Under the pieces are notes generated by a model. That model had not been told where the DNA came from. It worked only from the letters and a program-made list of their open reading frames with translations, and did no database searches. Positions 1-19,295 of a stretch of DNA of 64,000 nucleotides are shown here, piece after piece. Origin of the DNA: an uncultured virus (IMG/VR IMGVR_UViG_3300002835_000128) (taxonomy: Duplodnaviria; Heunggongvirae; Uroviricota; Caudoviricetes). The stretch lies in IMG/VR virus record IMGVR_UViG_3300002835_000128. The stretch is one strand, 5' to 3'. Each line of letters opens with the position of its first letter. The first letter of the stretch is position 1. The position numbers were made by a program, and so were the translations under genes.

Positions 1-80
1 TGTTCTTTTTTTGTGTATTTGCCAGAAATAAATGAAGCTGATGTAATATTTGGCTTTCCCTTAAAGCCTCCATTAAACAT
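1..80 (-). CDS. 5' part of a putative receptor-binding/tip protein (MFNGGFKGKPNITSASFISGKYTKKEQ...), runs off the window
   Basis: ATG at 80 overlaps the TAA of the upstream adaptor ORF (TAATG); frame is open to the window edge; position matches the cassette layout. Confidence 0.6.
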   Translation of the reverse strand, partial: MFNGGFKGKPNITSASFISGKYTKKE

Positions 81-439
81 TATCCAATTTCCTCATACGA
101 ACAAACCGCTTGCAAATCACCTGTGGTATTTGCTACAAGTTGTATTGTGTCTCCCTCTTCTAAGAATATAACAGTATTTTTATCGATAGCAGTAAATGTA
201 GATTTGTTTGGAACATCAATAAATCTTGCTAGATATGCAGCTGTCGAACCACGATTAAAGGCGATTGATACATTTGCTATGTTCGAAGCATTTAAATTTG
301 AAACATAAAGACTGTTTACTTTAAATAACTTATTGCTGTTTCCTAAATTTGCTACAACATTGGCCATCGTGGTTGTCACATTCAACGTGGCTGTTTTACC
401 AAATATCGAAGTCGAGGTTAAAATGTTTGTGTTTGCCAT
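80..439 (-). CDS. Small beta-rich virion adaptor-like protein (MANTNIL...SYEEIG), paralog of 9771..10145
   Basis: Similar length and motifs to 9771..10145 (K(V/L)NS, IDK.T.I(F/Y)L.E, S(Y/W)EEI). Confidence 0.65.
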   Translation of the reverse strand: MANTNILTSTSIFGKTATLNVTTTMANVVANLGNSNKLFKVNSLYVSNLNASNIANVSIAFNRGSTAAYLARFIDVPNKSTFTAIDKNTVIFLEEGDTIQLVANTTGDLQAVCSYEEIG

Positions 440-448
440 TTATAATCC

Positions 449-1174
449 TTAGTATAAAAACATTCCCAAGCCATATGACTGAGCTCTAGTTAGCCCTCCA
501 GTATTTGCTTGATTAAAAGCCGCATTTGCTTGATCGAAGGCTGAGTTGGCGTGGTTTCTTACATACGTATCTGTGGCATTATTTGCGGCAGTAAAAGCAG
601 CATTTGCCGTGATGAAAGCCGCATTAGCCTGGTCAAATGCAGAGTTAGCATATACAGGATCTCCTGGATCTCCTTTAACTCCGTTTGGTCCAAATTCAAC
701 CCATTGAGCAGAATCTTCATCAGTAAACCATGTAAATTCTTTGCCGGTGGTTGAACTAACCCATATGTCTCCGTTCGAATTGTTTGAAGGTGGTGTAGCC
801 GAGAGAGTTATCTTTGCAGCTGATCCTGTTCCCGAACCAGCATTTGCTGTATATTGTTTGGTGCCATCACCAAACTGAATGTATGTGTTAGATGCTACAC
901 TATTAGCACTAACATTATTTGTTCTGAGAGTACCTGAAGATTTTTCGAATGTGAGGCGAGAATTAGCACCTAGACTTCCAGAGTCATTGAACTGGATCTC
1001 ACCATTTAAACCGGAGGGGCTAGCTGGTGCTGTAAACTCTACAACCGTACCATCAGGTTCGGCATAAAAAAGTTTTCCATCCCGTGTATTGATGGAAATT
1101 TCACCATTGGCCAAAGATACAGGAACATTGCCCTGTACAGTTGAGTGTTTAAGCTGTATTACTGTGTTTGCCAT
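449..1174 (-). CDS. Tail fibre stalk segment with an Mtd_N-like N-terminal domain and NAAF coiled-coil repeats
   Basis: N-terminus MANTVIQLKHS...LANGEISINTRDGKLFY; GEIQFND motif; ANxAF repeats; hydrophobic C-terminal peptide. Confidence 0.7.
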   Translation of the reverse strand: MANTVIQLKHSTVQGNVPVSLANGEISINTRDGKLFYAEPDGTVVEFTAPASPSGLNGEIQFNDSGSLGANSRLTFEKSSGTLRTNNVSANSVASNTYIQFGDGTKQYTANAGSGTGSAAKITLSATPPSNNSNGDIWVSSTTGKEFTWFTDEDSAQWVEFGPNGVKGDPGDPVYANSAFDQANAAFITANAAFTAANNATDTYVRNHANSAFDQANAAFNQANTGGLTRAQSYGLGMFLY

Positions 1175-1641
1175 TAGAACGAGCTACCGTCATTAGGTAT
1201 CGTGATAGGAATATCCGGCGCAGGTTCTTCCACTTTTACATTGTTAATTTTTTTCAGTTTGGATACAGGAGCAATTTCTTCAAGTTTTGTAATATACTCT
1301 TTCAACTTGTTTGTCTCCAGTCCTATTTCTTCCAGCTGCTTTTTCAAAACCACATTTTCCTTCATTGAATTATTTAATGCAGTCTGTATTCTTTGTTTTT
1401 CTTGATTTACCGATTCATTTATTTGAGAGACTGTTTTAAATTTTTCCAGTTCATCAAGTTTTGATTTTAAAGAATTAAATGATGCAGCTAATTCATCATA
1501 TTTTACCTGTAATTCATTTTTTTGTTGGCTTACATTTTCAACTAATTTTAATTGAGTTTGAAAAATAAAGTTCTGCTTGATAATCGACATTAAATTATCA
1601 AGCAGAATCTCCTGGTAAGCATTTGAAAACTCTACGCTCAT
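1174..1641 (-). CDS. Coiled-coil protein ending DGSSF
   Basis: 155 aa K/E/Q-rich heptad sequence; coupled to the next gene; CTAAATA upstream. Confidence 0.7.
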   Translation of the reverse strand: MSVEFSNAYQEILLDNLMSIIKQNFIFQTQLKLVENVSQQKNELQVKYDELAASFNSLKSKLDELEKFKTVSQINESVNQEKQRIQTALNNSMKENVVLKKQLEEIGLETNKLKEYITKLEEIAPVSKLKKINNVKVEEPAPDIPITIPNDGSSF

Positions 1642-1667
1642 AACAATTCCTTTTCACAATAGTTTAT

Positions 1668-3173
1668 TTAGAATGTGCCTCCGGATAGATGTGCGAATGT
1701 TGGCACTCCGGCATTATTAATTGTCAATACATGACCTTCTGTCGATGAAGATGCTGTAGTAAATGCACTTGTTCCTTGACCTAGCAAAACACCATTTGCA
1801 GTAAATGATCCAGCTCCTGTACCACCTCTTGGAACAGACAATGTACCAGAATTAATTACCGAAGCATCAATCAGTAACAGAGTTGAATTCGCAGAACTTA
1901 CACGACCATTTGCCTCAAGTTTAAATTGTGGTATATAAGCAACACCGCCAAACACAGCGCCATGATCTGCTGCTGTTGTACTAATTGTAGTGTAGTCAGT
2001 ATTTGCGACGCCTGCTGTTCCATTTGCAAGACTAAACGCTGCATTGGCATGACTAAAAGCCGCATCAGCAGAGTTTTGTGCATTGGTAATGTTGGTGTTT
2101 TGTGTGAGATTTACACCTTGAATTGCTGTGATATCGCCAGAATTTGTATTTGCTTGAGCATAAGCCGCATTTGCCTGATGAAAAGCATTATCAGCTTTTG
2201 TTTGAGCTGTTCCAGCATTTGTTTCTGCGGTGTTTGCTTTGTTGTATGCGTTATCTACATAAGTTTGTAAATCTTGTCCGTTTAATGTAACAGACTGTGA
2301 TTTTAAATTTGCATGTAATGTTGCTACTCTAAAAGATGCATCATTAATATCAATTAAGTTGGCATCTGGTTCTAGTGTGTAGTTATCAAAGATATAGAAT
2401 TCTTTGTTACTTGCTTCACGGAAGAAACCAGTATGTCTTTGTGTCGAACCATCAAAATAGTTAGCAGCAAAACCAATCTCTACAGCGTCACCAGAGTAAT
2501 TGTTTGCAGCAAGATAAATTAATGGATCAGAGATATTGAGAGTTTCAATATTAGTTGTTACTGTATTACCAATAACAGTCAAGTTACCAGTAATAGTTAA
2601 GTTAGCAGCAACTGTAACTGGACCAGTAATTACACCACCAGCATTTGCATTGAGTGAATTATTCGCACGAATAAAAGCAGCATCAGCTGTATCTTTTGAT
2701 GAAGTGATGTTGGTGTTTTGTGTAAGATTTACACCCTGAATTACAGTGATATCGGTTGTGTTGGTATTAGCCTGTGTATACGCCGCATTTGCTTGGTGGA
2801 AAGCATTATCCGCTTTCGTCTGAGCGGTCGTAATATTAGTGTTCTGAGTTGTATTAATACCCTCAAGTTCAGCAATGTCTGTAGCATTAGTATTTGCTTG
2901 GGCATAAGCTGCATTAGCATGGTTAGCTGCATACACAACCAATTCGGAAGAACCGGCTGAATTGGCAGCACTAAACGCCGCATTTACTAAGTTATAAATC
3001 TCTGCTTGCTGGTCAAGATAGAATCTGCCACCAATCGCTATGACGCCATCACTGCCTGGGGTTCCAATAAACAGTGTGTTACTTGTATAGGAATAAGCCG
3101 GTTCGGCAACATTCAGACTAGGAGGTGTTGCCGTGACTGTAGAGTATTTTAGTTGAATTACGGTATTTGCCAT
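1668..3173 (-). CDS. Tail fibre segment (Mtd_N-like N-terminus, NAAF repeats, C-terminal GGTF)
   Basis: MANTVIQLKYS...LNVAEPAYS; ANAAY/F repeats; GNLTVIGNT and RGGTG fibre motifs. Confidence 0.75.
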   Translation of the reverse strand: MANTVIQLKYSTVTATPPSLNVAEPAYSYTSNTLFIGTPGSDGVIAIGGRFYLDQQAEIYNLVNAAFSAANSAGSSELVVYAANHANAAYAQANTNATDIAELEGINTTQNTNITTAQTKADNAFHQANAAYTQANTNTTDITVIQGVNLTQNTNITSSKDTADAAFIRANNSLNANAGGVITGPVTVAANLTITGNLTVIGNTVTTNIETLNISDPLIYLAANNYSGDAVEIGFAANYFDGSTQRHTGFFREASNKEFYIFDNYTLEPDANLIDINDASFRVATLHANLKSQSVTLNGQDLQTYVDNAYNKANTAETNAGTAQTKADNAFHQANAAYAQANTNSGDITAIQGVNLTQNTNITNAQNSADAAFSHANAAFSLANGTAGVANTDYTTISTTAADHGAVFGGVAYIPQFKLEANGRVSSANSTLLLIDASVINSGTLSVPRGGTGAGSFTANGVLLGQGTSAFTTASSSTEGHVLTINNAGVPTFAHLSGGTF

Positions 3174-3212
3174 TTTAGATACCTTTTTTTATAATTATTC
3201 TGTATTTATCCG

Positions 3213-5309
3213 TTAGAATGTTCCACCGGCAATTGTAGTAAATGTGTTAGCAAAGTCGAAGGCTGCATTAGAATGAGCTCGAGCATAGGGGTCAAATGTG
3301 CCAGACAATGCATTATTTGCTGCAATGAAGGCAGCGTTAGCGGTGTTAAACGCCGTATTAGCATAAAATCCAGCACTGTTGGCCGCTCTGAAAGCACTGT
3401 TCGCATAACCACTAGAACTATTAAACTTATCGTCAGCCGTATTAGCAGTGAAGAAAGCGGCGTTCGCATAATTGGATGCCGATAGGGCATTTGATATTGC
3501 TAAATTGGCCTGAGTAAACGCACCGTTTGCATAAATTCTGGCACTAAGGGCAGTGGTGTTTGCCTCATTAAATGCACCATTAGCATATATGCCTGCACTC
3601 GCAGCAACAGAAGCCGCTAAATTTGCTGCAGCAAAAGCACCATTAGCGTAAATACTAGATGAAGTTACCTTCGTATCAATAACATTTGCAGCTGCAAAGG
3701 CGCCATTAGCATATATTCCAGAAGTTATCGCTTTAGCGTCTGCAACATTAGCGGCAACAAAGGCTCCATTGGCATATATTCCTGGAGAAATACCAACAAG
3801 TAGTGCAGAGTTGGCTGTAGAAAACGCTGCATTAGCTTGACTAAATGCTGCTGAAGATGAAGTTACAGCAGTGTTTGCACGAGCATATGCACCGTTAGCA
3901 TACGTTGAGGCTGCATCGGAACCTATTGTAAAATAATTTGTTCCGTCATTCGTGGCCTGCCAAACATCTAGTGTTTCATTCCAAATAAAGAATACGTTAC
4001 TTAAAGCACCACGGTCAATCTCAATACCAGCATCTAAAGTTGGAATTGCCGCTTCAAATATTGAAGCGTTAAGTGTGATGATATTATCTTTTACTACAAC
4101 TGTTTCGGTGTTCGCAAAAATTGCTTGACCGACGATGGTTAGGTTTCCTGTTACTTGAACATCGCCTGATATTGAACCACCACTACTACTAAATTTTGAA
4201 TTCGCAGCGATAAAGGCCGCATTAGCATAATTAGAAGCCGCTAAAGCATTTAAGTCAGTTACATTTGCTTTTGCAAAAGCAGAGTTAGCGTAAATACCCG
4301 CAGAAGTTGCTTTAGTGTCGATTACATTTGCTGCGGCGAAAGCACCATTTGCATATATGCCAGATGTTACAGCCTTCGCATCTGCAATATTGGCCGCAGC
4401 AAAGGCACCGTTGGCATACACACCCGCTGAATTTGCAGCAATAAAGGCCGCATTAGCGTAAGTACCAGGAACTACACCAACTAGAAGTGCTGAGTTTGCT
4501 ACTGCAAAGGCGCCGTTGGCGTATATACTTGCCGAAGATACTTTACTATCAACTACATTGGCTGCAATAAAGGCACCGTTGGCATAAATGCCAGCAGATG
4601 ATGCAGTCGAACTAACAAGATTTGCGGTTGCAAAGGCGCCGTTAGCATATGTGCCTGCTGAGTTTGCAGCTATGAAAGCAGCATTAGCATAATTTTCAGC
4701 CGATACTGCAACAGTTGTTAATGAAGATAAAGCAGAATTTGCTGCAACAAAAGCACCATTTGCATAGATACCGGCCGAGGTGACCTTTGTATCAATAACA
4801 TTTGCAGAAGCGAAGGCTGCATTTGCTTGATTGCTTGCAAATGTAGATTTTTCAAAAGCACTGTTTGCTACAACGAAAGCACCGTTAGCATATACACCAG
4901 AAGATGTGGCAGAAACGGTTGCAGTATTTGCCTGATTATATGCAGCGTTGGCTTTATCAAATGCTAAATTTGCCTTCTCAGTTGAAGCATTGTTTGCTCG
5001 TTCGAAAGCTGCGTTCGCTTGAATAAATGCAGCAGTTACTTTTGCATCTACAACAGCAACATTTGAATTTATTTGATCGACAATTAATGTTGTTGATGCA
5101 TTAGCCTTATCAAATGCTGCATTGGCTAAATTGTAGATGTTTTGTTGTTGATCTACATAGAATTTACCACCAATGGTAATAACACCATTTGATGATGTTC
5201 CGATGAAGAGTGTATTACTTACAAAAGAATAGGCCGGTTCAGCAACATTTAAAGTTGTTGGAGCCGCATTGGTCGTCGAACTCTTTATCTGAATTAAGCT
5301 TGTGCTCAT
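3213..5309 (-). CDS. Tail fibre segment with long ANGAF/ANAAF coiled-coil repeats and C-terminal GGTF
   Basis: N-terminus paralogous to 1668..3173; many YAN(G/A)AF repeats; DNIITLN...AGIEIDRG domain. Confidence 0.75.
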   Translation of the reverse strand: MSTSLIQIKSSTTNAAPTTLNVAEPAYSFVSNTLFIGTSSNGVITIGGKFYVDQQQNIYNLANAAFDKANASTTLIVDQINSNVAVVDAKVTAAFIQANAAFERANNASTEKANLAFDKANAAYNQANTATVSATSSGVYANGAFVVANSAFEKSTFASNQANAAFASANVIDTKVTSAGIYANGAFVAANSALSSLTTVAVSAENYANAAFIAANSAGTYANGAFATANLVSSTASSAGIYANGAFIAANVVDSKVSSASIYANGAFAVANSALLVGVVPGTYANAAFIAANSAGVYANGAFAAANIADAKAVTSGIYANGAFAAANVIDTKATSAGIYANSAFAKANVTDLNALAASNYANAAFIAANSKFSSSGGSISGDVQVTGNLTIVGQAIFANTETVVVKDNIITLNASIFEAAIPTLDAGIEIDRGALSNVFFIWNETLDVWQATNDGTNYFTIGSDAASTYANGAYARANTAVTSSSAAFSQANAAFSTANSALLVGISPGIYANGAFVAANVADAKAITSGIYANGAFAAANVIDTKVTSSSIYANGAFAAANLAASVAASAGIYANGAFNEANTTALSARIYANGAFTQANLAISNALSASNYANAAFFTANTADDKFNSSSGYANSAFRAANSAGFYANTAFNTANAAFIAANNALSGTFDPYARAHSNAAFDFANTFTTIAGGTF

Positions 5310-5552
5310 TTAAAAAGTTCCGCCGTTGACTACTGGTACAGAGACAGTATTTGCTTCATACTTTCCTGTAGCAGAATTAAAGACTAAAGTTTGACCGTTT
5401 TGAACAACGACAGCTTCAACGTCAGCTAATTCAGACACAGCCACATTTGGCTTTGGTGAAAAGTCGGAAGAAACAATTGACGTTTTTATCGGGCTGCTGA
5501 CCTTAGCACGCCCAATGTTTGTTGTCGTGTTTATTTTTGCTATAATTGCCAT
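5310..5552 (-). CDS. Small fibre connector protein ending GGTF
   Basis: LADV...NGQTLVFNSATGKYE fibre motif; C-terminus VNGGTF. Confidence 0.65.
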   Translation of the reverse strand: MAIIAKINTTTNIGRAKVSSPIKTSIVSSDFSPKPNVAVSELADVEAVVVQNGQTLVFNSATGKYEANTVSVPVVNGGTF

Positions 5553-5553: not shown

Positions 5554-5889
5554 TTATGACTGTGTAACGCCCGGTAATACTACAACAATTCCTTCTACCA
5601 CTCTTGATTTGGTAGAGTCTGGTGCTGTAATAACTAAATCGTAAAGATATCTTCCGGGAGTTAAATTGCCAGTATTGGCAGCAGTCATAGATAAAGTGAT
5701 TTCACCGTTAGCTGTTCCAGTGACAGTAGCAGTAAAATTATTAGCAGTTGATGAATAGTAAGATTTTCGAATTTGAGATGATGCTGTATAACCAAAAAGG
5801 TTTACAGAATCACCTGCGGAATCTTCTACGTTAATCGTAGTAGAAAATGTGGCGTATTGCTCAATAGTAAGTTCAGAAAATGCAGCCAA
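5554..5889 (-). CDS. Ig-like/BppU_N-like virion attachment protein
   Basis: IEQYATF...GYTASSQIRKSY...GRYLYDLVI...RVVEGIVVV pattern; TTG start with GGGAG SD. Confidence 0.6.
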   Translation of the reverse strand: MAAFSELTIEQYATFSTTINVEDSAGDSVNLFGYTASSQIRKSYYSSTANNFTATVTGTANGEITLSMTAANTGNLTPGRYLYDLVITAPDSTKSRVVEGIVVVLPGVTQS

Positions 5890-5931: not shown

Positions 5932-6333
5932 TTAAGGATTATATACGTACCATGATTGATTATCTTCATTCCATTTATACCTTTCTGGACCCTCAGGTTT
6001 TGGAATTGGAGCATCGTAAGCACAAGTTTCTTCATTAAAGATCCAAGAGTTGAAAGGTTTTACTTGCTTACTTTTTTCAATCTTATCTGCTCTTTCTTCG
6101 TCTGTCATTGGTCTTACAATATGAACATCTTTTACTACACCGTCTATCATTTCATATCTGAGGCCATCATAAACTTCATATATTCCTATGCTAGGTTTAG
6201 GTACTCTTTCAAAAGAACAAAAATCGGAAGGTAGATTTTCCAAATTTACATTTGGAAAAGAATAACGCATATTCGATTCGGTTATTGGATGACCAATTGG
6301 TTGGCCATCACTTAACTGTATAAAAAGTCTCAT
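5932..6333 (-). CDS. Putative tail fibre chaperone/accessory protein
   Basis: Follows the tip protein; C-terminal KPFNSW...APIPKP...YKWNE...W motif shared with 14728..15084. Confidence 0.55.
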   Translation of the reverse strand: MRLFIQLSDGQPIGHPITESNMRYSFPNVNLENLPSDFCSFERVPKPSIGIYEVYDGLRYEMIDGVVKDVHIVRPMTDEERADKIEKSKQVKPFNSWIFNEETCAYDAPIPKPEGPERYKWNEDNQSWYVYNP

Positions 6334-9300
6334 TATAAGTCCTGTGTTCTAGTATTTGGAAATGCTCTTCCTGGTCCCCAAATAATTCTTGCAGCACCAG
6401 GAGCACCGCTACCACCAGGAGCACCATCGATTGAAGCGGCTCCTCCACCATAATTTCCACCATTTATATAATCTTGAGCAGATGTAGGAGTTATAGAAAA
6501 TCCGTCATAGTTTCCACCAGGATTTCCTCCTGATCCGCCTTCTCCGGCACTTCCAGGTAAGTTAGCTCCAGCAGGAGGACCGCAGTGGCCGTTGCGACCA
6601 GACCTTCCTTTTCCATATATTCCAACTCCACCTCCGCCGCCGGTATAAAAATCAGTGCCAGTTCCCCCAGCGCCTCCGCCACCACTAACAATAGCTTGGT
6701 GTGCTATGATATTTTGTGGTTGACCTGAGGCTCCTGGTCCGTCATAACCTCCCGCACCACCACCGCCGGCAGCACCGTCAGGAACACCACCGGCGCCGTT
6801 GCCGCCAGCACCTCCGCCTTCTCCAAAAAATCCTCCACCAAGCATTTGCGTTGGAGAAAATCCAGTGTAATCTGATCCACCACCAAATCCAACTAATTCA
6901 TGCAAGTTATATAATGACTTTATATCATAAGAGAAAACGGTGTCATTATTTGAAGGATAAGAACCGGCTTTTAAGAAAAGTCTTTTACCAGAATCCGCAA
7001 AGGTTACAGCTGTTAAAGAATCAGCAGCAATTGTAGTTGTAGAATTAGCAGTATCAAATAAAATGTTCGAGTAAGATAAAGAGTATGATAAGTTTATAGA
7101 TTCTAATCTATATGGTATATCAAGATTCCAAAAATCAATCTTCGTAGATTTATTAGTTGAAACAGCATGGTTGTTCGCAACCACAAAAGATTTTCCGTCT
7201 GGTCTAATATAAAGATCGGATAATCCGCCAGTTAAAGGAAGAAGTCCTCCTGAAAACTCTACCGAAGATTCTTTGAGTAGACCAGTAACATTCCATGGAG
7301 ATGATTGATAATATATGGTACTTAACGTATCTGGTGTGTCCAATTTTGATTGGAATATTGTTTCATCTGTACCTAAAGAAAAATATAGATTTCTGCCATC
7401 AGGACTCAAAAACAGTTGTTCGATATTTGAGTTATTGGATGGTCTTAAAGTATAATTATTTGCCCAAGCATTAAGATTAGAATTTGTTGAACTGAGATTA
7501 CCAGACTCGTTTAAATCATATTGGCGAATAAGCCTTTCGTGTTGTGATGTTGACGATGAAGAAACATAGGATTTTGTAAAATCTGAGTTGAAACAAATTC
7601 CTGTAGTGTCTACGCCGGTGACAGAAGGTATGTTTGCATAAGGTAAATGGTTAGCTAAAGTAAACTTTCTAACCCTATTATATGTGGAACCAACCATGTA
7701 GAAAGTTGTTCCATCTTTCCAATAGAGGGCTGTCGGTGTTTGATCCATATTTACTGTTCCACTAACAGCAACCGTCACATCTGAATAAGACGCTGTATTA
7801 ATATTATATGGATCAGATAAATTGTACTGATTAATATCGTCACCAGTTCCTCCCATAACAAAAAGTTTAGTTCCGTCATTGTTGAAGGAAATAGTGGCTG
7901 GAGTAGATTCTTGAGTTACTACCGATAAGTTTGAAGTAGACTGTACATTGGCTGTTGCTACATTCCATGCTTCAGATAAATTCCAAGAAAAAACTCTATC
8001 ACTCGATGTTCCAGAAACAAATAATTTGGTTCCATCAGGTTTAAAAGTTAATGCAGTTAAATTAGCATCGAATGTGGTTAAAACTATACTGTTATTAACA
8101 CTTTGTGCTGTAAGAGTCTGAGCATTCCAAGCCTCTGTCAACGTAAAAGGATATACTCTATCTGTGCTGTTTCCGATAAGGTAAAATGTTGAACCGTCTT
8201 TGATATACAAATCAGCAACAGAGGTTTCTGCCCACCCTAATGTGGCAGCAGTTTGAGACTGTCTCAAAAATGTGGCACTTTTAACTACCCATGGAGTGCT
8301 TAAATCGTATTCTAATACAGTACCACCAGGTCCAGTAATATACATTTTGGTACCATCGTCTTTAAACGATAATCCTGATGCAACAGTTGTTTGTGGCACA
8401 ACAATTCTTTGGTCACCAGAGTATAAAATTCTTGTAACATTATATTCTGAATTAGCCGTAGATAACGCTAGAGTTTGTATATTCCATGCTTCAGATAAAT
8501 TATATTCAATGACATTGTTTGCTATAGGATGACTTAGATACGCTTTTGTTCCTGTGCCATTAAAAGCCAACTGACTTGCTGGTCCTAAAACATTCGAATC
8601 AATTCCTTTTTCAGAAGTATAAACAGACGTTGCTACATTCCACGGAGTTGATAGAGTATATTGGAATATTCTAGTGTTTGAGTTGGCATTAGCTGGAATA
8701 TCCATTAGGTACATTGTTGTACCATCAGTTTTAAATGCAATTGAATTTGCAGAATAGTTATTTGCACTTAGAGAGTATATTGTTTCTGAAGAAGCTGTGG
8801 TTATATTCCAAGCTTCAGACAGAGAATATTGTGCTACATTTTGTGTTGAAATTGGAACATATAGTTTTGTTCCATCATCTTTAAATGTGAATCCTCTAAC
8901 ATATTCTGTAGGTAAACTTGAAGCTACGTTTAAAGCCGGTACCATTTTATATTGGTATATTTCTGGCTGAGTAGTACGAGTAGCATACAGATATTCTCCA
9001 TTATCACTAATTGTAAACCCATGAGATGACGAGTTAGCCAAAAGTGGTGAATATCTAGTAAGTGAAGAGGTTGTTATATCCCAAGGAGTTGCAAGTGTAT
9101 ATTCGATTATTTTCCGTGAAACTGCACCAGAAACATGCATTTTTCTACCATCATTACTGAAATGTAAAGACTGTGGCGCAGTTTCTCCAGAAGTGGTAGT
9201 TACATTTATATTTGCAGAAAGAGAAGCAGTTGCTACATTCCAAGATTCTGATAAGTTATATTGTAGTATTAAATCTCCGGTTTTACCAACAATATACATT

Positions 9301-10359: not shown

Positions 10360-10776
10360 TTATCTAACCAGTTCTGGTGGAGGATCACCTTCTGGTTTTG
10401 GATGATCCTCTTTAATTTTTTTAATTGTTTTGAACCATTCTGAATCTTTTAAATCGATACCATTATTTATAGAGTGCCAAATCATATCGAGTTGCTCAAA
10501 TCCATCTGGGTATTTATGACACCTATCATAAGCATATTGATAATACTCAGCAACTCTTTTTTGCCTATCGACTTCATTCATGATTTCTTCTTTTGATGGA
10601 GGAGGTAAACCATTTGGATCTTCCCATTTTGGCCAAGAGAATTCTCCACCACCAGCAATCATATCGAATTTAGCACCAGGTCTTAGAGCTTTGATTGCAG
10701 TATCTACACCATAAGCTAAACCAGATTGTCCTGTAAAATTTCTCATTAATTCATCCACATTCATTTTAAACTCCAA
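10360..10776 (-). CDS. XkdW-like tail fibre assembly protein
   Basis: AIKALRPGA...W....PS.EEI...Y...R...YP...EQLDMIWH...IK...PKP pattern. Confidence 0.55.
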   Translation of the reverse strand: MEFKMNVDELMRNFTGQSGLAYGVDTAIKALRPGAKFDMIAGGGEFSWPKWEDPNGLPPPSKEEIMNEVDRQKRVAEYYQYAYDRCHKYPDGFEQLDMIWHSINNGIDLKDSEWFKTIKKIKEDHPKPEGDPPPELVR

Positions 10777-12811: not shown

Positions 12812-13219
12812 TTAGAAGTCTGTGTATTCTGCTTTGAAGATTATACCAATTGGTAAAGCAACTTGTGCTCCAACATAAATCGAATCTGATGCTTCCAATC
12901 TCAGAGGATTAGTCTCTGTGTAATTGAAGTTTGTTGGAGTAATTCCAGATGTTGTACTAACTGTCTGAGCAGCCATAACATTTGCATCAATTAGATTTTT
13001 TGTAACGCCACCATTTTTGCTTAAAAATAAAGCAATCGTTGTAGCAGTCACAGTAGCTGAAGGTAAAGCAGATATTCTAGTCACAACGGAACCGTCTGAG
13101 CCAGCTGTTAGTAAAAGCTGTGTGTTAGCTGGAGTGCTAGATATATTACATGCAGTATTACAGTTTGCTGTGACAGTTTTTGGTGTCTGTGCAAATGGAG
13201 CTGTAAATGTTTTTGCCAT
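12812..13219 (-). CDS. Small virion adaptor-like protein (MAKTFTAPFAQ...AEYTDF)
   Basis: Same cassette position as the other adaptors; LRLEASDSI matches LVLEASDAL of 18392..18712. Confidence 0.6.
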   Translation of the reverse strand: MAKTFTAPFAQTPKTVTANCNTACNISSTPANTQLLLTAGSDGSVVTRISALPSATVTATTIALFLSKNGGVTKNLIDANVMAAQTVSTTSGITPTNFNYTETNPLRLEASDSIYVGAQVALPIGIIFKAEYTDF

Positions 13220-13231: not shown

Positions 13232-13801
13232 TTAATTAAAACTTAGAGCTATAGCTTGTGCTTGGGCTAAAGCTGTTGTATTCGAGAATGGAACCTGAGA
13301 AGCTATAGAAACATTAGCTGCGTAAGTTACTCTGCCTGCTGCATCTACATTGATAACAGGAACAGCAGTTGAACTTCCATAGTTACCTGAAGAAACTCCA
13401 GTGTTCGTTAAATTGGTAGAACCAATTGTGTAGGTAGTTATTTTATCGCCAGTAACCGCTGATGGAGCTAGTTTTGGATTTGTAACTGAACCATCAGTTA
13501 AAGTGTCCGTATTAATTGAATCTTGGTCAAGATTATATCTGAGTAATGTATAATTTCTAAATGTAACTATAACATTATTTGAGGCTAAACTTGGAGCTTC
13601 TGTAAACGTAATCGTATTGGATCCGTTTACAGTATACGCTACATCTGGATCCTGTTGAACATTGTTTACAAGGACTTCGATATCGCTAGCATTATGCACT
13701 TCACGACTTAACGTGAATGTTAATGCGCTTCCATCTCCGTTAAACTTTTCTGTTTTAGCGATGAAACTTTGTGTGAGTGGTAAATTACCTAAGTACGGCA
13801 C
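13232..13801 (-). CDS. Fibre linker (MPYLG N-terminus, GDG..T.F domain, VDAAGRVT repeat)
   Basis: Paralog of 16391..16855; GTG start; ends ALAQAQAIALSFN. Confidence 0.65.
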   Translation of the reverse strand: MPYLGNLPLTQSFIAKTEKFNGDGSALTFTLSREVHNASDIEVLVNNVQQDPDVAYTVNGSNTITFTEAPSLASNNVIVTFRNYTLLRYNLDQDSINTDTLTDGSVTNPKLAPSAVTGDKITTYTIGSTNLTNTGVSSGNYGSSTAVPVINVDAAGRVTYAANVSIASQVPFSNTTALAQAQAIALSFN

Positions 13802-13816: not shown

Positions 13817-14725
13817 TTAGTTTATGGTATAAACAAGGCCACCATTGAGAAAGCGAATTATAACTATTCCTGAACCACCCATTCCAGAACCTACTCCATT
13901 ATGACCACCGCCACCTCCACTTCCAGTGTTATTTGCTCCATTTTTTCCTATATTCGTAGGAGTTCCACCGTTTCCACCAATTCCTGATCCACCAAAACCT
14001 GAAGTAGTTCCACCAGAACCGCCTCCTCCGCCAGCGTAGGTTACTGAACTGCCGGATATAGAAGAAGTAGTTCCAGTACCACCGTTGGCTCCAGCATTTT
14101 GACCAGCGGTGCTAACACCAGAAGAACCTGCTCCGCCACCGCCGCCGGCAGCATTTCCTGCACCTTCTCCACTACCTCCAGGATTTCCTTGGCCAGGAAT
14201 TCCTAATCCAACAGGTCCGCCCTGAGCGCCGCCACCTGAACCTCCTGATAGTCCGGCGTTTGTAATACCAGGACCTGGTCCAAATCCACCTCCGCCTCCA
14301 AAAGTGGCAGTAATTGTAGAAAATACAGAATTTGTTCCATTTGAACCTAATCCTGGATTTCCGTTAGCTCTAGCTGCGCCGCCGGCCCCTACTGTAACAG
14401 TTAAAGATACATTAGAGGTTACTGGAAAATTAGATCCTAGTCTATATGCACCAGCACCACCTCCGCCGGCTGCCCAGTTTCCTGGCGCTCCTTCTCCACC
14501 TCCGCCGCCGCCAGCTACAACCAAATATTCTACATTACCCGTAAAATTGGGAATAAAGTTTCCAGAAGATGTGAAAATGTGGGCTGTATTTCCACCATCA
14601 ATGGCTACATTTCCTCCATTAGCAGAAAGACTTGCTACACCAAGTCCTACGGTTAAACCTGCTGGGTATTCGTACCCCTCAGGTCTAAAATTTTGTAACG
14701 AAAATCTTTTTGATGGGTCACTCAT
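13817..14725 (-). CDS. Glycine-rich domain tip protein
   Basis: HIFTSSG...VEYLVVAGGGGGG...GGSGIVIIR. Confidence 0.7.
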   Translation of the reverse strand: MSDPSKRFSLQNFRPEGYEYPAGLTVGLGVASLSANGGNVAIDGGNTAHIFTSSGNFIPNFTGNVEYLVVAGGGGGGEGAPGNWAAGGGGAGAYRLGSNFPVTSNVSLTVTVGAGGAARANGNPGLGSNGTNSVFSTITATFGGGGGFGPGPGITNAGLSGGSGGGAQGGPVGLGIPGQGNPGGSGEGAGNAAGGGGGAGSSGVSTAGQNAGANGGTGTTSSISGSSVTYAGGGGGSGGTTSGFGGSGIGGNGGTPTNIGKNGANNTGSGGGGGHNGVGSGMGGSGIVIIRFLNGGLVYTIN

Positions 14726-14727: not shown

Positions 14728-15084
14728 TTAAGCATTCTCTGTAATTTCATCCCAAGTTAATGTATCTTCATTCCAACCATACATTCTTCCATCAGTTGGC
14801 ATATCAACTGGTGGTTTCCATGAGGCTGTATCAACATCTAGTGTCCAACTATTAAATGGTTTAGGAGGCATAAAGATGTCATTTTCAGAATCGTAGATGT
14901 ATCCTATACCTGCATAATTTCCACGTAGAGGAGTTCCTCCTAAAGCGTGAGTATTATTTCTGGTGTTGTACGAAGTTTGGATCCACATTGAGGGATCACC
15001 AACAGCACCAGTGTTAATGAAATCTTGTTCTGCTACAATCACAGAAGTTACAATACCATTTTCAATTTTAGCAAAATGTGACAT
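14728..15084 (-). CDS. Putative chaperone/partner of Gly-rich tip proteins (MSHFAKIENG type)
   Basis: WIQTSYN...RGNYAGIGY.YD...D.F..PKPF.SW motif; lies between two Gly-rich genes. Confidence 0.6.
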   Translation of the reverse strand: MSHFAKIENGIVTSVIVAEQDFINTGAVGDPSMWIQTSYNTRNNTHALGGTPLRGNYAGIGYIYDSENDIFMPPKPFNSWTLDVDTASWKPPVDMPTDGRMYGWNEDTLTWDEITENA

Positions 15085-15105: not shown

Positions 15106-16056
15106 TTAATTTATAGCGTATGTACCAGGTAAACTTATACTACCTTCTGTTATTGGAACTCGAATAATAATTATTCCTGATCCTCCGTTGCCGCCAGCGC
15201 CAACACCGCCATTGTTTCCTCCACTGGCTCCACCTCCACCACCAGTATTATTGGCTCCAGCTTGACCATTTCGGCCAGTATCTCCAAGGCCACTTGCTCC
15301 TCCTCCGCCAGTTCCTCCAGCAGTATTCGACGATGGAGATTCATAAGAATGTCCTCCGCCGCCACCAGCGTAAGCAACATTAGAACCAGATATAGTAGAA
15401 AATAATCCAGCGCCTCCGTTACCACTAGACAAAACGCTAGGATTTCCAAAAGCACCATTAGCAGAAGCGCCGCCGCCACCGCCGCCACGGCCAAATCCTG
15501 TGCTTCCTCCCCCATTATTTCCTTGACCGGAAATACCAGATCCCCCGAAACCACCTCGGCCACCGCCTCCGCCAGAACCTCCTGGTCCTCCAGAAATTCC
15601 GTCTGCCGGTCCTCCCGGAGCTCCACCATAACCTCCACCTTCAGAAGTTATTGTTGAAAAAACGGAATTGCTTCCTTTTATTCCACTAGCTGTAACAGCC
15701 GGAACTCCTGGCCCACCTTGAGATGCTCCAGAACCGCCGGCACCAACAGTTATCGCATAAGTGGTGCCTTCTGAAACAGGAAATCCTGAACCTGTTCTAA
15801 AACCACCTGCTCCACCGCCTCCAGCAATCCCAGCGCCGCCTCCTCCTCCACCGGCAACAACGAGGTATTCAACAGAACCATAAAACTGTACTGTTAAATT
15901 TCCTGAGCTGGTAAAAGTATGAATAACATTATCACCAATAACAGTTTGTGTTCCTCCAGTCATTAACAATGCGGTGTTAAGCGTTTTTACTGAAACTGGA
16001 GTTAACCCTATAGGAAAGGCATATCCTTTCGGTCTTCCGATTGTTTTAATCGACAT
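15106..16056 (-). CDS. Glycine-rich domain tip protein
   Basis: HTFTSSG...VEYLVVAGGGGGG...GGSGIIIIR; paralog of 13817..14725. Confidence 0.7.
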   Translation of the reverse strand: MSIKTIGRPKGYAFPIGLTPVSVKTLNTALLMTGGTQTVIGDNVIHTFTSSGNLTVQFYGSVEYLVVAGGGGGGAGIAGGGGAGGFRTGSGFPVSEGTTYAITVGAGGSGASQGGPGVPAVTASGIKGSNSVFSTITSEGGGYGGAPGGPADGISGGPGGSGGGGGRGGFGGSGISGQGNNGGGSTGFGRGGGGGGASANGAFGNPSVLSSGNGGAGLFSTISGSNVAYAGGGGGHSYESPSSNTAGGTGGGGASGLGDTGRNGQAGANNTGGGGGASGGNNGGVGAGGNGGSGIIIIRVPITEGSISLPGTYAIN

Positions 16057-16057: not shown

Positions 16058-16387
16058 TTAAGTTATCTCAGAACCAAAAATACTAAATGAAACGCTGTTA
16101 TTATTTGTGTTTGCTCTTACTTGATCGCCTGCATCAATCGTCAATCCTAGAGTGATTGCTATTGAATCTGCAGCAGGCACAACGCCGCCACGAATTATAT
16201 AGTGTTTAACATTATCAGCTTCAGCATTTGGTGCCACAGCAATACTATAAGAAGTGTTTATCGCTGTTTGGTTACAGATTGTAATTGTAGATATAACTGC
16301 TTGAGTCGCTGCAGGAACTGTATAAACATTCGATAGCGTATTCGCCGCTGGGTTTATTTGTCCTAATACTTTATATGTTGTTGGCAT
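16058..16387 (-). CDS. Small virion adaptor-like protein (MPTTYKVLGQ...FGSEIT)
   Basis: VYTVPA...ISTITICN...SFSIFGSEIT; cassette position. Confidence 0.65.
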   Translation of the reverse strand: MPTTYKVLGQINPAANTLSNVYTVPAATQAVISTITICNQTAINTSYSIAVAPNAEADNVKHYIIRGGVVPAADSIAITLGLTIDAGDQVRANTNNNSVSFSIFGSEIT

Positions 16388-16390
16388 TTG

Positions 16391-16855
16391 TTACATTCCT
16401 GATAGTAAAAATGGATTAAATCCTGTTTCAATAGCTACGTTTGAAGCGGAAGTAATTCTTCCTTGAGCATCTACTGTAAATGAAGATACATTCGAAGCAC
16501 CACCATATAAACCAGCTGACACTCCTGTTGTTGTTAGTCTTACTGAGGTGATACTGTTCGCAGCAATTGTTCTATCTGTTACCGATAAATCTGATGGTAC
16601 AGAAGAAACACCAAATAATCCAAGATAGACAATTTGAATATTGTTTGTTCCTGTTGGAGGTGCTTCTGTAAAAATTATATTTCTTCCGCTTAGATAATAA
16701 CTATCTATGTTTTGACGAATTCCTCCAACGAAAACCATTATTGAGCTAGTAGCCGCAACAGCTTCACGCATCACAAAAGATGTGGTGCTGTTATCGCCGC
16801 TAAAGACATCAATATAGAATGTCGTTGATTTTGGTATGCTTCCTAAGTATCCCAT
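16391..16855 (-). CDS. Fibre linker (MGYLG N-terminus, GDNSTTSF domain, VDAQGRIT repeat)
   Basis: Paralog of 13232..13801; ends FNPFLLSGM. Confidence 0.65.
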   Translation of the reverse strand: MGYLGSIPKSTTFYIDVFSGDNSTTSFVMREAVAATSSIMVFVGGIRQNIDSYYLSGRNIIFTEAPPTGTNNIQIVYLGLFGVSSVPSDLSVTDRTIAANSITSVRLTTTGVSAGLYGGASNVSSFTVDAQGRITSASNVAIETGFNPFLLSGM

Positions 16856-16884: not shown

Positions 16885-17799
16885 TTAGTAAGTAAAAGAA
16901 CCAGAATTTGCAAATGTATGATATGTATAACCACCACTTGAAACTATATTACCACCATTAGCTTTTGTTATTCCTTGATATCTCACAATGACTACACCTG
17001 AACCACCTGAGCCTCCGATTCGCTGATATGGAGCAGTATCGGATCCACTTCCACCACCGCCTGATCCAGTTTTTTCAGTAGCTGGCCCACCGTTAGTTTC
17101 ATTATTGCCACCATTTCCAGCACCACCTCCTCCACCCGAAGCACCAGATTGAACTGGACTTCCGCCGGCACCTCCGCCACCAGCGTAAGATCCTCCAGAT
17201 CCAGTAGAAGTTGCTGTAGCCCAAGTTGAATAAGCAGCCGTTGCTGACCCTCCGGTACCAAAATAAACTGGTGGTGCTGTAGCATTTTGTCCAGCAGCAT
17301 TTGCTCCACCACCACCGCCTGCTGCACCCCAGTTAGCTGACCAGTTTGCAGCATCACCACCTTTATTTCCTTGTCCGGGAGTACCAGAACCTCCTGTTAT
17401 TGCACCTACAGGAGCTGGTGCGAATGATGTTGATCCTCCACCAGATCCTCCAGAAAAACCAAATCTACCAGTTCCACCACCTTCACCACAAGCACCGCCA
17501 CCTCCACCGGTGGCAGTTTGTGTTGAAAAATAAGATGGACTTCCATTAGCCCCAAAAGTTGCTGGTCCAGGAGTTGAACCAGTATCTGGTCCACCTCCGG
17601 CTCCTCCACCTCCAACGACTACTGTGTATGTTCCTTTTTTTATTTTTAAGTTATTGACATACAAAACACCACCCGCACCACCACCAGCTCCAGATATAGT
17701 TTGTCCTGAAGAACCACCACCACCGCCACCAGCGATAACTAAAAGTTCTAATTTTAATTCACTTGTTAAAGCTTGATTAAATTTTCTATGAGAAAACAT
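16885..17799 (-). CDS. Glycine-rich domain tip protein
   Basis: LLVIAGGGGGG...GGSGVVIVRY...YTYHTF..SGSFT. Confidence 0.7.
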   Translation of the reverse strand: MFSHRKFNQALTSELKLELLVIAGGGGGGSSGQTISGAGGGAGGVLYVNNLKIKKGTYTVVVGGGGAGGGPDTGSTPGPATFGANGSPSYFSTQTATGGGGGACGEGGGTGRFGFSGGSGGGSTSFAPAPVGAITGGSGTPGQGNKGGDAANWSANWGAAGGGGGANAAGQNATAPPVYFGTGGSATAAYSTWATATSTGSGGSYAGGGGAGGSPVQSGASGGGGGAGNGGNNETNGGPATEKTGSGGGGSGSDTAPYQRIGGSGGSGVVIVRYQGITKANGGNIVSSGGYTYHTFANSGSFTY

Positions 17800-18377
17800 T
17801 ATAAGTAATAATCTTGTGAAACAGTTCCGTACCAGTTAGTTCCATCGGATATAAATGAAATTATATCCAAACGATTCAAAGATGTTGTAAACGCTGGAGC
17901 ACTATTTGATGGCCATTTAACAGAGGTAAATGTGGCAGTTAAGTTATTAGCCCCAATTCTCATTAAAACTGTAAAGCTTTTGCCTGCTGAAACAGAAGGC
18001 ATTGTGAACGTACAATTTTGTGTTAGGTTAACAGTTTGTAATGTGCCGTTCGTTAATGATATTGTTTGTGAAGCACCAGAACTACCAATTGCAACAACAG
18101 ATTCAGTATAATTTGTGTACGTAGAATTTGTTAATGTTAAATTACTGACAGAAGTAACATTAGCTGAATAAGTAACTCTACCATCTTGACCAATGGTTAA
18201 AGTTGGTATGCCTGTTGAACCACCGTAAACTCCAGAAGTAACACCGGTGTTTACTAAGTTCGAAGAACCGATTGTATACGGAGCTATTCTGTCGCCAGTA
18301 AAAGTACCAAGTTCAAAAAGATTACCAGTTATGGTGCCACTTGATATTAAGTTACCGTAAACTCTTGTGAGTGCCAT
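17799..18377 (-). CDS. Fibre protein (MALTRV N-terminus, C-terminal beta-sandwich)
   Basis: TGVTSGVYG...DGRVT repeat; C-terminal VKWP...P......DIISF.SDGTNWYG. Confidence 0.65.
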   Translation of the reverse strand: MALTRVYGNLISSGTITGNLFELGTFTGDRIAPYTIGSSNLVNTGVTSGVYGGSTGIPTLTIGQDGRVTYSANVTSVSNLTLTNSTYTNYTESVVAIGSSGASQTISLTNGTLQTVNLTQNCTFTMPSVSAGKSFTVLMRIGANNLTATFTSVKWPSNSAPAFTTSLNRLDIISFISDGTNWYGTVSQDYYL

Positions 18378-18391
18378 TTATAATCTCTCTA

Positions 18392-18712
18392 TTAACTGAT
18401 TTCTAATACTGAGCAAATGACATCAGCGTTTGCTGAAGCTGACACTTTTAATGCATCGCTCGCTTCAAGAACCAATTTTTGGTCTCCACCTATTGGCACG
18501 AAAGAACCTCCAGCTGCAATCGTAACTTCTTTGATTAAATAATAATCGGTTCCACCTGCCGTCAAATATACATTTGCAGATATGGGAGAGTTAGTCATAT
18601 TTGCTACACTCATACCAATCACCGTGGCCTGAACACCACCACCTGCGGTAAACACTGTTTGTGGCGTAGTGTTAGCGTTTTTAATTAAATAATTTTTAAA
18701 GGTGTTTGCCAT
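18392..18712 (-). CDS. Small virion adaptor-like protein (MANTFKN...SVLEIS)
   Basis: TVIGMSVAN...GGDQKLVLEASD.L.V...SVLEIS. Confidence 0.65.
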   Translation of the reverse strand: MANTFKNYLIKNANTTPQTVFTAGGGVQATVIGMSVANMTNSPISANVYLTAGGTDYYLIKEVTIAAGGSFVPIGGDQKLVLEASDALKVSASANADVICSVLEIS

Positions 18713-18749
18713 TTTTTACTATCCTTGATGATCTATTTATGTGTTTGTT

Positions 18750-19295
18750 TTATCCTAAAGCAATCGACAGAGCAACTGCATCATTTAAAGCTGTATTGGC
18801 TGAATTGTAAGCCGCATTAGCATGGTCGTAAGACGAATTTGCTTGAATGAAAGCAGAATTAGCATAAGAACCAGAAATTGTCGCAGCAGAGGTTGAAATA
18901 GTTTGTGCTGCAGTGATACTAGAATAAATTAAAGTGTTCGCTGAACCAGTAAGAAAAGTTACATTAGCTGTTTGGAAATTACCATAATTTACTGAGGCAT
19001 TTGCCAGAGTAGTATTTCCTCCAACTGTAAGATTGTTGGCAAATGATGCCGAACCATTCGAATTAATGTCATCGAAACTTACGGAATCTAATACGATATT
19101 GCCCGAAACAGTTAAATCACCGCCAATTGTAAGGTTGTTCGCTACCGATAAGTTTGTATTGGCATAAAATGTCGTACTGCCTGGCCCACCAGGACCACCA
19201 TCAGTTAAATCATTTACCTTTGTAATAAGGTTTTGAGTGGCGGTTAACCATTGGCTAAACGTATTCGAGGTGCTTATTTGTGCAATAATAGCCAT
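18750..19295 (-). CDS. Fibre root/stalk protein ending AVALSIALG
   Basis: N-terminal NTFSQW...T..L motif; NAAF repeats. Confidence 0.6.
   Translation of the reverse strand: MAIIAQISTSNTFSQWLTATQNLITKVNDLTDGGPGGPGSTTFYANTNLSVANNLTIGGDLTVSGNIVLDSVSFDDINSNGSASFANNLTVGGNTTLANASVNYGNFQTANVTFLTGSANTLIYSSITAAQTISTSAATISGSYANSAFIQANSSYDHANAAYNSANTALNDAVALSIALG

What the first reader, a model, noticed from the sequence alone, without database searches (positions are those of the whole stretch)
1..19295. Repeated peptide/adaptor cassettes suggest a plug-and-socket code for building branched tail appendages
Seen: five cassettes share one order, stalk with a short hydrophobic C-terminal peptide, then a 106-135 aa beta-rich adaptor, then tip protein(s), with chaperone-like genes in three cassettes. 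The pairs are AVALSIALG(18750)/MANTFK(18392), FNPFLLSGM(16391)/MPTTYKVLGQ(16058), AQAIALSFN(13232)/MAKTFTAPF(12812), KSIAISIVFGG(10151)/MANPNIV(9771) and YGLGMFLY(449)/MANTNIL(80). The adaptors look like divergent paralogs (LE..D-like motif; four end EI(S/T/G)). The two closest adaptors both precede tips starting with (R/N)GG(Y/F). Inference: each adaptor binds its own stalk peptide and its own tip N-terminus, giving orthogonal connectors that let one virion display at least five swappable receptor-binding heads. I do not know of a description of this code.
Basis: partly seen in the sequence, partly recalled or inferred. Interest (0 to 1): 0.8.

Follow-up and report, generated by a model that had tools for sequence, protein, structure and literature searches.

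The report
Peptide-matched connectors in phage tail fibres
This T4-like aquatic phage encodes five small related proteins, each placed between a fibre gene ending in a short greasy peptide and a following fibre or tip gene; the peptide type tracks the small-protein type across hundreds of phages, so they are probably snap-together joints of a branched fibre, although binding has not been shown.

Summary
The five peptide/adaptor pairs are at the stated coordinates, in the fibre region of a T4-like phage. The adaptors are one unnamed family of small beta-sandwich (jelly-roll-like) proteins in four classes; the fifth is a divergent class-D member. The covariation test passed: in 282 distinct pairs from 286 IMG/VR loci plus the window, the upstream C-terminal peptide predicted its adaptor class 220 times, a wrong class 0 times, none 62 times. 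Stalk bodies are shared between classes, and conservation is at protein level. One correction: the cassettes look nested, not parallel. Class A precedes 'Y-I/L-G' stalks that themselves end in B or D peptides (C in this window), so A is probably a hub. Binding, orthogonality and joint display on one virion are not shown. Virion evidence is mixed: a homologue is labelled virion protein in S-SCSM1 but was not detected in YerA41. A few adaptors lack a cognate peptide. This scan noted the same grammar on other genomes. My ten paper searches found no description. Verdict: probably a real, undescribed peptide-coded fibre joint (about 0.7).

The parts
18750..19295 (-). Root stalk (181 aa) ending in the class-A peptide ...ALSIALG; second gene after the 1993-aa DUF4815 baseplate-region protein
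   Evidence: class-A profile score 24.3
18392..18712 (-). Adaptor A (106 aa), jelly-roll-like; inferred hub for Y-I/L-G stalks
   Evidence: model pLDDT 94; folds; context
17799..18377 (-). Stalk (192 aa) starting MALTRV, with a C-terminal tail-fibre domain (phrog_9017); no Y-I/L-G..P plug, attachment unexplained
   Evidence: homologue in L016 does not follow an A adaptor
16885..17799 (-). Glycine-rich tip (304 aa, PF21722)
16391..16855 (-). Second-level stalk (154 aa): N-terminal MGYLGSIP (A-type plug), C-terminal class-B peptide ...PFLLSGM
16058..16387 (-). Adaptor B (109 aa)
   Evidence: hhalign A-B 96%; phrog_1276 N-terminal domain
15106..16056 (-). Glycine-rich tip 1 of the B cassette (316 aa), leader RPKGYAFPIGL
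14728..15084 (-). Tip-associated small protein (118 aa, phrog_7759, unnamed; chaperone role inferred)
13817..14725 (-). Glycine-rich tip 2 of the B cassette (302 aa), leader RPEGYEYPAGL shared with tip 1
13232..13801 (-). Second-level stalk (189 aa): N-terminal PYLGNLP (A-type plug), C-terminal class-C peptide ...AQAIALSFN
12812..13219 (-). Adaptor C (135 aa), the most divergent
   Evidence: model pLDDT 92.5; shares BFVD hits with A; hhalign A-C 77%
11230..12810 (-). Tip (526 aa), propeller-like repeats (Reg_prop), not glycine-rich
10778..11233 (-). Tail-fibre-assembly-like protein (151 aa)
   Evidence: phrog_4628, phrog_8746
10360..10776 (-). Small fibre-associated protein (138 aa, phrog_9114, unnamed)
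10151..10357 (-). Mini-stalk (68 aa) starting MALSRI, ending in class-D peptide GKSIAISIVFGG
9771..10145 (-). Adaptor D (124 aa)
   Evidence: hhalign A-D 96%
6333..9755 (-). Tip (1140 aa): leader RYRGGYI, glycine-rich and beta-propeller domains
5932..6333 (-). Tip-associated small protein (133 aa, partial phrog_7759)
5554..5889 (-). Protein like the T5-type L-shaped fibre assembly protein (phrog_3304); possible anchor of the second fibre chain
   Evidence: anchor role inferred
1668..5552 (-). Three chained fibre genes (80, 698, 501 aa), each ending GGTF; the two longer ones and the 449 stalk start with an IQ.K leader
449..1174 (-). Stalk (241 aa) starting MANTVIQLKHS, ending ...SYGLGMFLY
   Evidence: RSY[AG]LGMFLY kept in close relatives
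80..439 (-). Adaptor E (119 aa), long-branch member of class D
   Evidence: 30% identical to D; tree
1..80 (-). Start of the E tip (MFNGGFKG...), cut by the window edge; 317 aa with a C-terminus like those of the glycine-rich tips in sister contig L306, followed by a second tip

Best explanation
The five small genes encode free-standing, two-faced virion connectors. SHOWN (sequence and models): they are one family of about 110-aa beta-sandwich proteins; each class follows a gene whose last 9-11 residues form a class-specific hydrophobic peptide, whatever the rest of that gene is; the next gene's N-terminus is also class-biased. INFERRED: the hydrophobic C-termini of a trimeric stalk plug into one face of the adaptor, probably an adaptor trimer that replaces the knob a fibre would otherwise carry in cis, and the other face holds the N-terminal leader of the next protein. 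INFERRED wiring in this phage: root stalk 18750 - adaptor A (hub) - Y-I/L-G stalks 16391 and 13232 - adaptors B and C - their tips; D caps mini-stalk 10151, whose own anchor is unexplained; E caps a separate GGTF/IQ.K fibre chain. Different classes keep several branches from mis-assembling and let recombination swap peptide+adaptor+tip as a unit onto the same stalk body.
For: Leave-one-body-family-out classification of 282 pairs: A 56/58, B 44/83, C 39/41, D 81/100 right, 0 cross-class; control window 15 residues upstream 23 right, 8 wrong, 251 unassigned. Reverse scan: of 253 ORFs with a class peptide, 245 are directly followed by the same class, 6 within 1.2 kb, 0 by another class, 2 by none detected. 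Later-fetched loci: 23 of 29 right, 0 wrong. One body family holds stalks of all four classes; 10 cross-class pairs have bodies 55-70% identical but switch peptide and adaptor together. Synonymous codons vary freely in the peptides, and 44 of 44 class-A stalks with a gap of 20 nt or more still end IALG. Same triad in HMO-2011, S-TIM5, Melnitz, YerA41, OspM_OC, RHph_Y65. Seven B domains are fused to the N-terminus of longer proteins, and loci L111 and L134 have three B domains after one B peptide, as a heterotrimer would need. Y-I/L-G..P proteins occur in 73 of 86 loci with an A adaptor and 4 of 201 without; of 68 distinct ones 29 end in a B peptide, 8 in a D peptide, 31 in none. In G005 a B peptide and a lone B adaptor lie about 6.8 kb apart. 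S-SCSM1 ORF27 (HMM A 37.7 bits) is labelled 'virion protein' in its record.
Against: All support is genomic context and modelling of single chains; neighbouring genes are inherited together, and loci were chosen around adaptors, so the reverse scan is partly circular. In YerA41 neither the adaptor (g041, 104 aa) nor its stalk (g040) is marked as particle-associated, though both Y-L-G proteins are (PMC7354516 Table S2; several tail genes are unmarked too). Lone B/D adaptors in L033, L049, L054 and L100 have no cognate peptide in nearly all of their contigs (contigs 17-34% complete); L055, L139 and L184 have none in the fetched stretch. 62 of 282 pairs were unassigned. The window's A adaptor is followed by a gene without the Y-I/L-G..P leader. 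The tip-side signal is weaker and partly carried by body homology. Oligomeric state is unknown.
Confidence: 0.7

Rival explanations
1. The small proteins are class-specific assembly chaperones: they shield the hydrophobic C-terminal peptide, trigger trimerisation or hand the stalk to the tip, and then leave. The code is real but the adaptor is not part of the virion.
For: Explains the peptide/class covariation equally well. YerA41 g041 not detected in particles. C-terminal chaperones are common for phage fibres (general knowledge; PMC10579305 seen only as a search listing).
Against: B domains fused to tips up to 1185 aa; S-SCSM1 homologue labelled virion protein; separate assembly-type genes are already present in the cassettes; a class-biased leader on the downstream gene suggests a second, lasting contact.
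Confidence: 0.13
2. The adaptor is only a stalk cap (a detached C1q/TNF-like knob, possibly itself receptor-binding). It binds the upstream peptide, while tips attach elsewhere; tip-leader bias comes from linkage.
For: Stalk-side signal is far cleaner than tip-side. The fold resembles C1q/TNF heads at Z about 7.5. In S-SCSM1 the next gene has no Y-I/L-G leader.
Against: Y-I/L-G leaders recur on non-adjacent genes in A-bearing phages (HMO-2011, YerA41, Y65, Melnitz; 17 loci with two); B-tip fusions; two B tips share one leader.
Confidence: 0.1
3. No code: the triads are co-inherited blocks, and peptide conservation reflects linkage or an overlapping ribosome-binding site; adaptors bind promiscuously.
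For: Genes are adjacent (median gaps 10 and 1 nt); GGA is the favoured terminal Gly codon in B and D (41 of 59, 53 of 87); some adaptors persist without a peptide.
Against: Conservation rises sharply in the last 11 residues while bodies differ; synonymous variation, and IALG kept at long gaps; the rule holds across podoviruses and myoviruses and across inserted genes.
Confidence: 0.07

Closest known systems
gp38 adhesin on the gp37 trimer tip of S16/T2-type long tail fibres (PDB 6F45; PMC6851490, passages of section 2.7 read)
   Same: A separately encoded part caps the C-terminal end of a trimeric fibre by hydrophobic contacts; tips carry glycine-rich (polyglycine) domains, as four tips here do (PF21722).
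   Different: gp38 binds gp37 directly through its own helical N-terminal domain with three tryptophans; here a third, all-beta protein sits between stalk and tip, and several paralogous classes coexist.
Branched RBP systems with T4gp10-like docking domains (phiKp24, CBA120, G7C; PMC9700779, four passages read)
   Same: Hierarchical, multi-tip fibre tree in which secondary fibres dock by N-terminal domains or short peptides.
   Different: There the docking site is a domain inside the primary fibre; here it is a free gene matched to a C-terminal peptide. No T4gp10-like hit for the adaptors.
T5/DT57C LtfC collar holding LtfA N-terminal strands (PMC10713586, passages read)
   Same: A small beta protein grips fibre N-termini by strand addition; window gene 5554-5889 matches that assembly family (phrog_3304).
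   Different: LtfC is a 12-mer ring on the tail that anchors the fibre root; it is not a stalk-to-tip joint, and the five adaptors do not match it.
Bacillus endospore appendage subunits Ena1/Ena3A with docking ruffle L-BclA (PDB 7a02, 8pdz; PMC11362473, passages read)
   Same: Small jelly-roll domain (Z 9.4 and 9.1, rmsd 2.3-2.4) whose oligomer receives N-terminal connector peptides and a separately encoded tip.
   Different: 9-12% identity; disulfide-linked polymer on spores; a fold likeness shared with many jelly rolls (KHP40 cement Z 9.9, nucleoplasmin Z 9.2), not evidence of kinship or function.
N-terminal 'adapter' domains of Klebsiella/Acinetobacter RBPs (bioRxiv 10.64898/2026.02.20.706991, abstract and outline only)
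   Same: Compatibility classes that decide which receptor-binding module fits which scaffold.
   Different: Those adapters are N-terminal domains of the RBP itself, not separate two-sided connectors.

Membership tests
gp38-type adhesin joint (S16/T2) | Tip with polyglycine (Gly-rich) sandwich domain | tested here: met
   PF21722 above cut-off in 16885, 15106, 13817, 6333; not in 11230
gp38-type adhesin joint (S16/T2) | Capping part is helical and joins the fibre directly, gene next to the fibre gene | tested here: not met
   The gene next to each stalk is an all-beta protein of 106-135 aa (models for A and C); tips come one gene later
T4gp10-like branching system (CBA120/G7C/phiKp24) | T4gp10-like docking domain within the primary fibre | tested here: inconclusive
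   No such hit for adaptors or stalks in Pfam, PHROGs or PDB sequences; stalks were not folded
T4gp10-like branching system (CBA120/G7C/phiKp24) | Several tips displayed on one virion | not testable with these tools
   Only gene content is known; at least six tip genes
T5/DT57C LtfC collar | Homology to LtfC/p132 family | tested here: not met
   phrog_3304 hits 5554-5889 (E 3.7e-24) and weakly stalk 449, but none of the five adaptors
Ena/DUF3992 jelly-roll appendage subunits | Small jelly-roll fold | tested here: met
   Z 9.4 to 7a02_A, rmsd 2.3 over 91 residues, tied with unrelated jelly rolls
Ena/DUF3992 jelly-roll appendage subunits | Sequence membership and cysteine-bearing N-terminal connector | tested here: not met
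   0 Pfam families for all five adaptors; no cysteine in the first 14 residues of four adaptors, one in C at position 21
C1q/TNF-like trimeric head | C1q fold and trimer | tested here: inconclusive
   Z 7.5-7.6 to C1q heads, within the background for jelly rolls; no Pfam C1q hit; one depositor's label 'c1q globular head like' on a homologue; oligomer not determined
Virion structural protein | Detected in purified particles | tested here: inconclusive
   S-SCSM1 ORF27 labelled virion protein (45 proteins by MS in PMC9602691; Fig. 2 not seen, supplement does not list it); YerA41 g041 not marked

The most novel reading that the evidence does not exclude
Aquatic podo- and myoviruses share a general, orthogonal peptide-socket-peptide assembly language: a family of free jelly-roll connectors, each class reading one C-terminal and one N-terminal tag, with class A as a trimeric hub, paralogues forming heterotrimers that carry different tips, and further tag pairs (GGxF/IQ.K, MAL[ST][RK][IV]) completing a tree whose wiring can be read from sequence alone.
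Probability: 0.4. Interest if true: 0.85.

Novelty: new variant of a known kind. Interest (0 to 1): 0.68.

Why it matters
Fibre regions of abundant marine and freshwater phages (pelagiphages, HMO-2011-type, cyanomyoviruses) are long runs of 'hypothetical' genes. A tag-and-connector rule would let their fibre trees be reconstructed from sequence, explain how receptor-binding tips are exchanged between unrelated phages without breaking assembly, and name a large unannotated family (1128 proteins for class A alone). If the classes are orthogonal, they are a natural set of short protein-assembly tags. The hypothesis can be tested with a few small recombinant proteins and with phages already in culture.

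Tried and rejected
Complex prediction of adaptor A x3 with the last 40 residues of stalk 18750 x3 gave no verdict (0.24 and 0.28, mark 0.32, controls not folded); it is no evidence either way, and cognate versus non-cognate modelling could not be run. No whole genome is held for the window; the nearest record G001 has no match to window 1-20000. PDB sequence search with the five-adaptor profile gave one hit at E 0.32. ESM Atlas gave only unnamed viral clusters. Adaptor C had no tblastn match among cultured phages. A wide structural search for the C model was queued but unfinished at four collections, so C was compared only with BFVD. The 7-7-1 tail-fibre hit (9rkv) is a jelly-roll domain inside a fibre (PMC12796354, passages), not a free connector. 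The OspM_OC paper (PMC7139368, two passages) does not mention the adaptor gene and has no 'mass spectrometry' occurrence. Ribosome-binding-site explanation rejected for class A, partly possible for the last glycine of B and D. A fifth orthogonal class for E is not established: only 3 full-length close relatives (90-100%) and 2 partial ones were found; the tree places E on a long branch among class-D sequences, and that tree held D sequences only (49 of 98 after 85% clustering). Within-class co-divergence of adaptor and peptide scores was positive for C and D but absent for A and B (kin not corrected). The GGxF/IQ.K pairing was only lightly tested: 7 of 26 GGxF ends are followed by the strict leader, against 14 of 2590 others. 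Ten paper searches found no description of the triad; subscription journals and bioRxiv supplements were not visible, and the virion proteomes of HMO-2011 and S-TIM5 were not seen.


Full report
Setting. The window is part of a T4-like phage genome: baseplate wedge, hub, tail tube, gp32-like and helicase-loader genes match PHROGs. No whole genome is held. Positions 1-19295 are a run of minus-strand fibre, tip and small genes that follows the 1993-aa DUF4815 protein.

Observation. All five peptide/adaptor pairs are present as described. None of the five adaptors has a Pfam family; A and B have weak hits to unnamed PHROGs. Pairwise they are 22-30% identical; D and E are closest (E 9e-16). Profile comparison links A-B and A-D at 96% probability and A-C at 46-77%. 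Models of A and C are confident and all-beta (pLDDT 94.3 and 92.5), and at least a dozen of the same BFVD proteins appear in both hit lists, so C shares the fold. The best solved matches to A are small jelly rolls at Z 9-10 (KHP40 cement trimer, Ena1, an HFTV1 turret protein, nucleoplasmin), at 8-13% identity: a common fold, no close relative.

Covariation, stalk side. Five scans of IMG/VR gave 286 loci (for A and D only the best 80 of 446 and 559 were returned). Class HMMs found 420 candidate ORFs; 389 passed score 60 and 70% coverage, and 282 distinct adaptor+peptide pairs with an upstream gene remained, the window's five included. Profiles of the last 11 residues were trained with each stalk-body family (95 families at 50% identity) left out in turn: A 56 of 58, B 44 of 83, C 39 of 41, D 81 of 100 were assigned to the right class, none to a wrong class, 62 to none. 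A window 15 residues further upstream gave 23 right, 8 wrong, 251 none. Relative entropy rises from mostly under 1 bit to 2-4 bits in the last 11 positions. Consensus: A .A.A[FL][AS]IALG; B .P[F]LL.G[MA]; C LA..[QH]A.AL[SC]F; D K.IA.A[MI][IV]FG. Many unassigned B and D cases are visible variants (AFLFGGM, GSIIFGA); 28 rows scored under 3 and were inspected. In the reverse direction, 253 distinct ORFs among 10411 scanned end in a class peptide; 245 are followed directly by that class, 6 within 1.2 kb (four across genes that look like homing endonucleases, my reading of their motifs, not a call), 2 by none, 0 by another class; this scan reuses the training loci. In loci fetched afterwards (cultured phages, metagenome and genome contigs) 23 of 29 were right, 0 wrong, 6 unassigned (some metagenome contigs repeat IMG/VR ones).

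Is it more than linkage? One body family of 148 stalks contains all four classes. Ten cross-class pairs have bodies 55-70% identical yet switch peptide and adaptor together, including the window's own C stalk against D stalks. Peptide codons vary synonymously, and all 44 class-A stalks whose stop lies 20 nt or more before the adaptor start still end IALG, so an overlapping ribosome-binding site cannot explain class A; GGA bias in B and D leaves a part for it. The A triad is intact in the podovirus HMO-2011 and in S-TIM5, Melnitz, YerA41, OspM_OC and RHph_Y65 (virus types as in the records and general knowledge). These points argue for selection on a protein-level partner, but kin share labels and none of this is binding.

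Tip side. N-terminal profiles assigned 151 of 274 downstream genes correctly and 3 wrongly; a control 25 residues inside gave 49 right, 2 wrong. A loose YxG pattern fits 54 of 58 genes after A, 0 of 76 after B, 15 of 40 after C, 2 of 100 after D; a GG-aromatic/aliphatic pattern fits 62 of 100 after D and none elsewhere. Seven B domains are fused to the front of proteins of 206-1185 aa, which puts the adaptor in the position of the tip's attachment end.

Hierarchy. Genes after A usually start M[AS]Y[IL]G..P and are stalks. A strict pattern finds such ORFs in 73 of 86 loci with an A adaptor (17 have two) and 4 of 201 without; two of these four are shown to hold a divergent A-like adaptor. Of 68 distinct such proteins, 29 end in a B peptide, 8 in a D peptide, 31 in none. 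HMO-2011, YerA41, Y65 and Melnitz each have further Y[IL]G proteins away from the adaptor. In the window the two Y-L-G stalks are 16391 (B peptide) and 13232 (C peptide), neither adjacent to A. I infer root stalk - A - two branches - B and C - tips. Both tips of the B cassette share the leader RP.GY..P.GL, a motif found only in loci with a B adaptor (17 of 17 hits). L111 and L134 carry three B domains after one B peptide, L139 four with no peptide in view, L018 two after one: this fits a heterotrimeric connector, but alternative subunits would look the same. Stalks 17799 and 10151 start MAL[ST]R[IV]; their anchor is unexplained. Stalk 449 belongs to a chain of genes ending GGTF and starting IQ.K, headed by a T5-type fibre-assembly homologue. 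E is a long-branch class-D sequence with its own peptide, kept as RSY[AG]LGMFLY in close relatives; whether it is orthogonal to D is open.

Results against. Adaptors in L033, L049, L054 and L100 have no cognate peptide in their stretch or in the rest of the contig as fetched; the contigs are 17-34% complete and three end in or near the fibre region. For L095 the missing B peptide was found about 6.8 kb upstream with no adaptor behind it, which favours pairing in trans. In YerA41, Table S2 of PMC7354516 (part 1 of the supplement read; genes matched by the run of protein lengths) does not mark the adaptor or its stalk as particle-associated, while both Y-L-G proteins are marked; several other tail genes are also unmarked. 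In S-SCSM1 a distant homologue (ORF27, between two fibre genes) is labelled 'virion protein' while a neighbour is 'hypothetical'; the paper reports 45 proteins by mass spectrometry (passages), but I could not see the figure that marks them, so MS detection is my inference. 'Virion structural protein' labels on other homologues are of unknown origin.

Comparison with what is known. It works like the gp37-gp38 cap of S16 (PMC6851490, passages), the docking trees of phiKp24/CBA120 (PMC9700779, passages), and the strand-gripping collar LtfC (PMC10713586, passages), but is a member of none by the features tested. Ten searches of the paper library found no description of a free jelly-roll connector matched to a C-terminal fibre peptide; subscription journals are mostly missing. 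The scan's own notes describe the same grammar on at least seven other windows; they are unchecked AI notes, not independent support, and I read them after my own counts were done; one gave the lead to the DT57C paper.

Verdict. Observation confirmed; interpretation partly supported. A lasting two-sided connector is the best reading (0.7), a transient chaperone (0.13) or a stalk cap only (0.1) remain, pure linkage is unlikely (0.07). New variant of a known kind (modular, branched receptor-binding fibres) with an undescribed joint; interest 0.68.

Noticed in passing
window 449-5889 (-): A second tag pair: three genes end GGTF and the following fibre genes start with an IQ.K leader; 7 of 26 GGxF ends in the loci are followed by that leader, and several others by a related 'TPI.LY' leader.
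   Followed up: partly
window 1174-1641 (-): A 155-aa coiled-coil-like gene with no family interrupts the GGTF chain; it ends DGSSF and homologues sit in the same place in L114, L326, L327.
   Followed up: partly
window 17799-18377 and 10151-10357 (-): Both stalks start MAL[ST]R[IV]; similar starts recur in L016, L095, L111 and Melnitz. Possibly a third leader class with an unknown socket.
   Followed up: no
window 18750-19295 and 5310-5552 (-): The two chain-heading genes both start MAIIA.I, hinting at a shared anchoring mode.
   Followed up: no
L219, L239, L251, L025 (just upstream of the matched adaptor): Genes of 162-198 aa that look like homing endonucleases are inserted between the stalk peptide and its adaptor (identity judged by eye).
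   Followed up: partly
L033, L049, L054 (stalks upstream of lone adaptors): Stalks carry a C-terminal domain of about 130-150 aa in place of the peptide and are followed directly by a glycine-rich tip, like window 17799/16885: a second, adaptor-free way to attach a tip.
   Followed up: partly
window 56820-58263 (-): Nucleotide-sugar epimerase and dTDP-4-dehydrorhamnose 3,5-epimerase genes, suggesting phage-encoded glycosylation.
   Followed up: no
window 56273-56833 (-): ClpP-like/head maturation protease family gene.
   Followed up: no
L329-L331: The only 3 class-A matches in the collection of one genome per prokaryote species lie on contigs of metagenome-assembled genomes and look phage-derived; all keep the IALG - adaptor - Y[IL]G triad.
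   Followed up: partly
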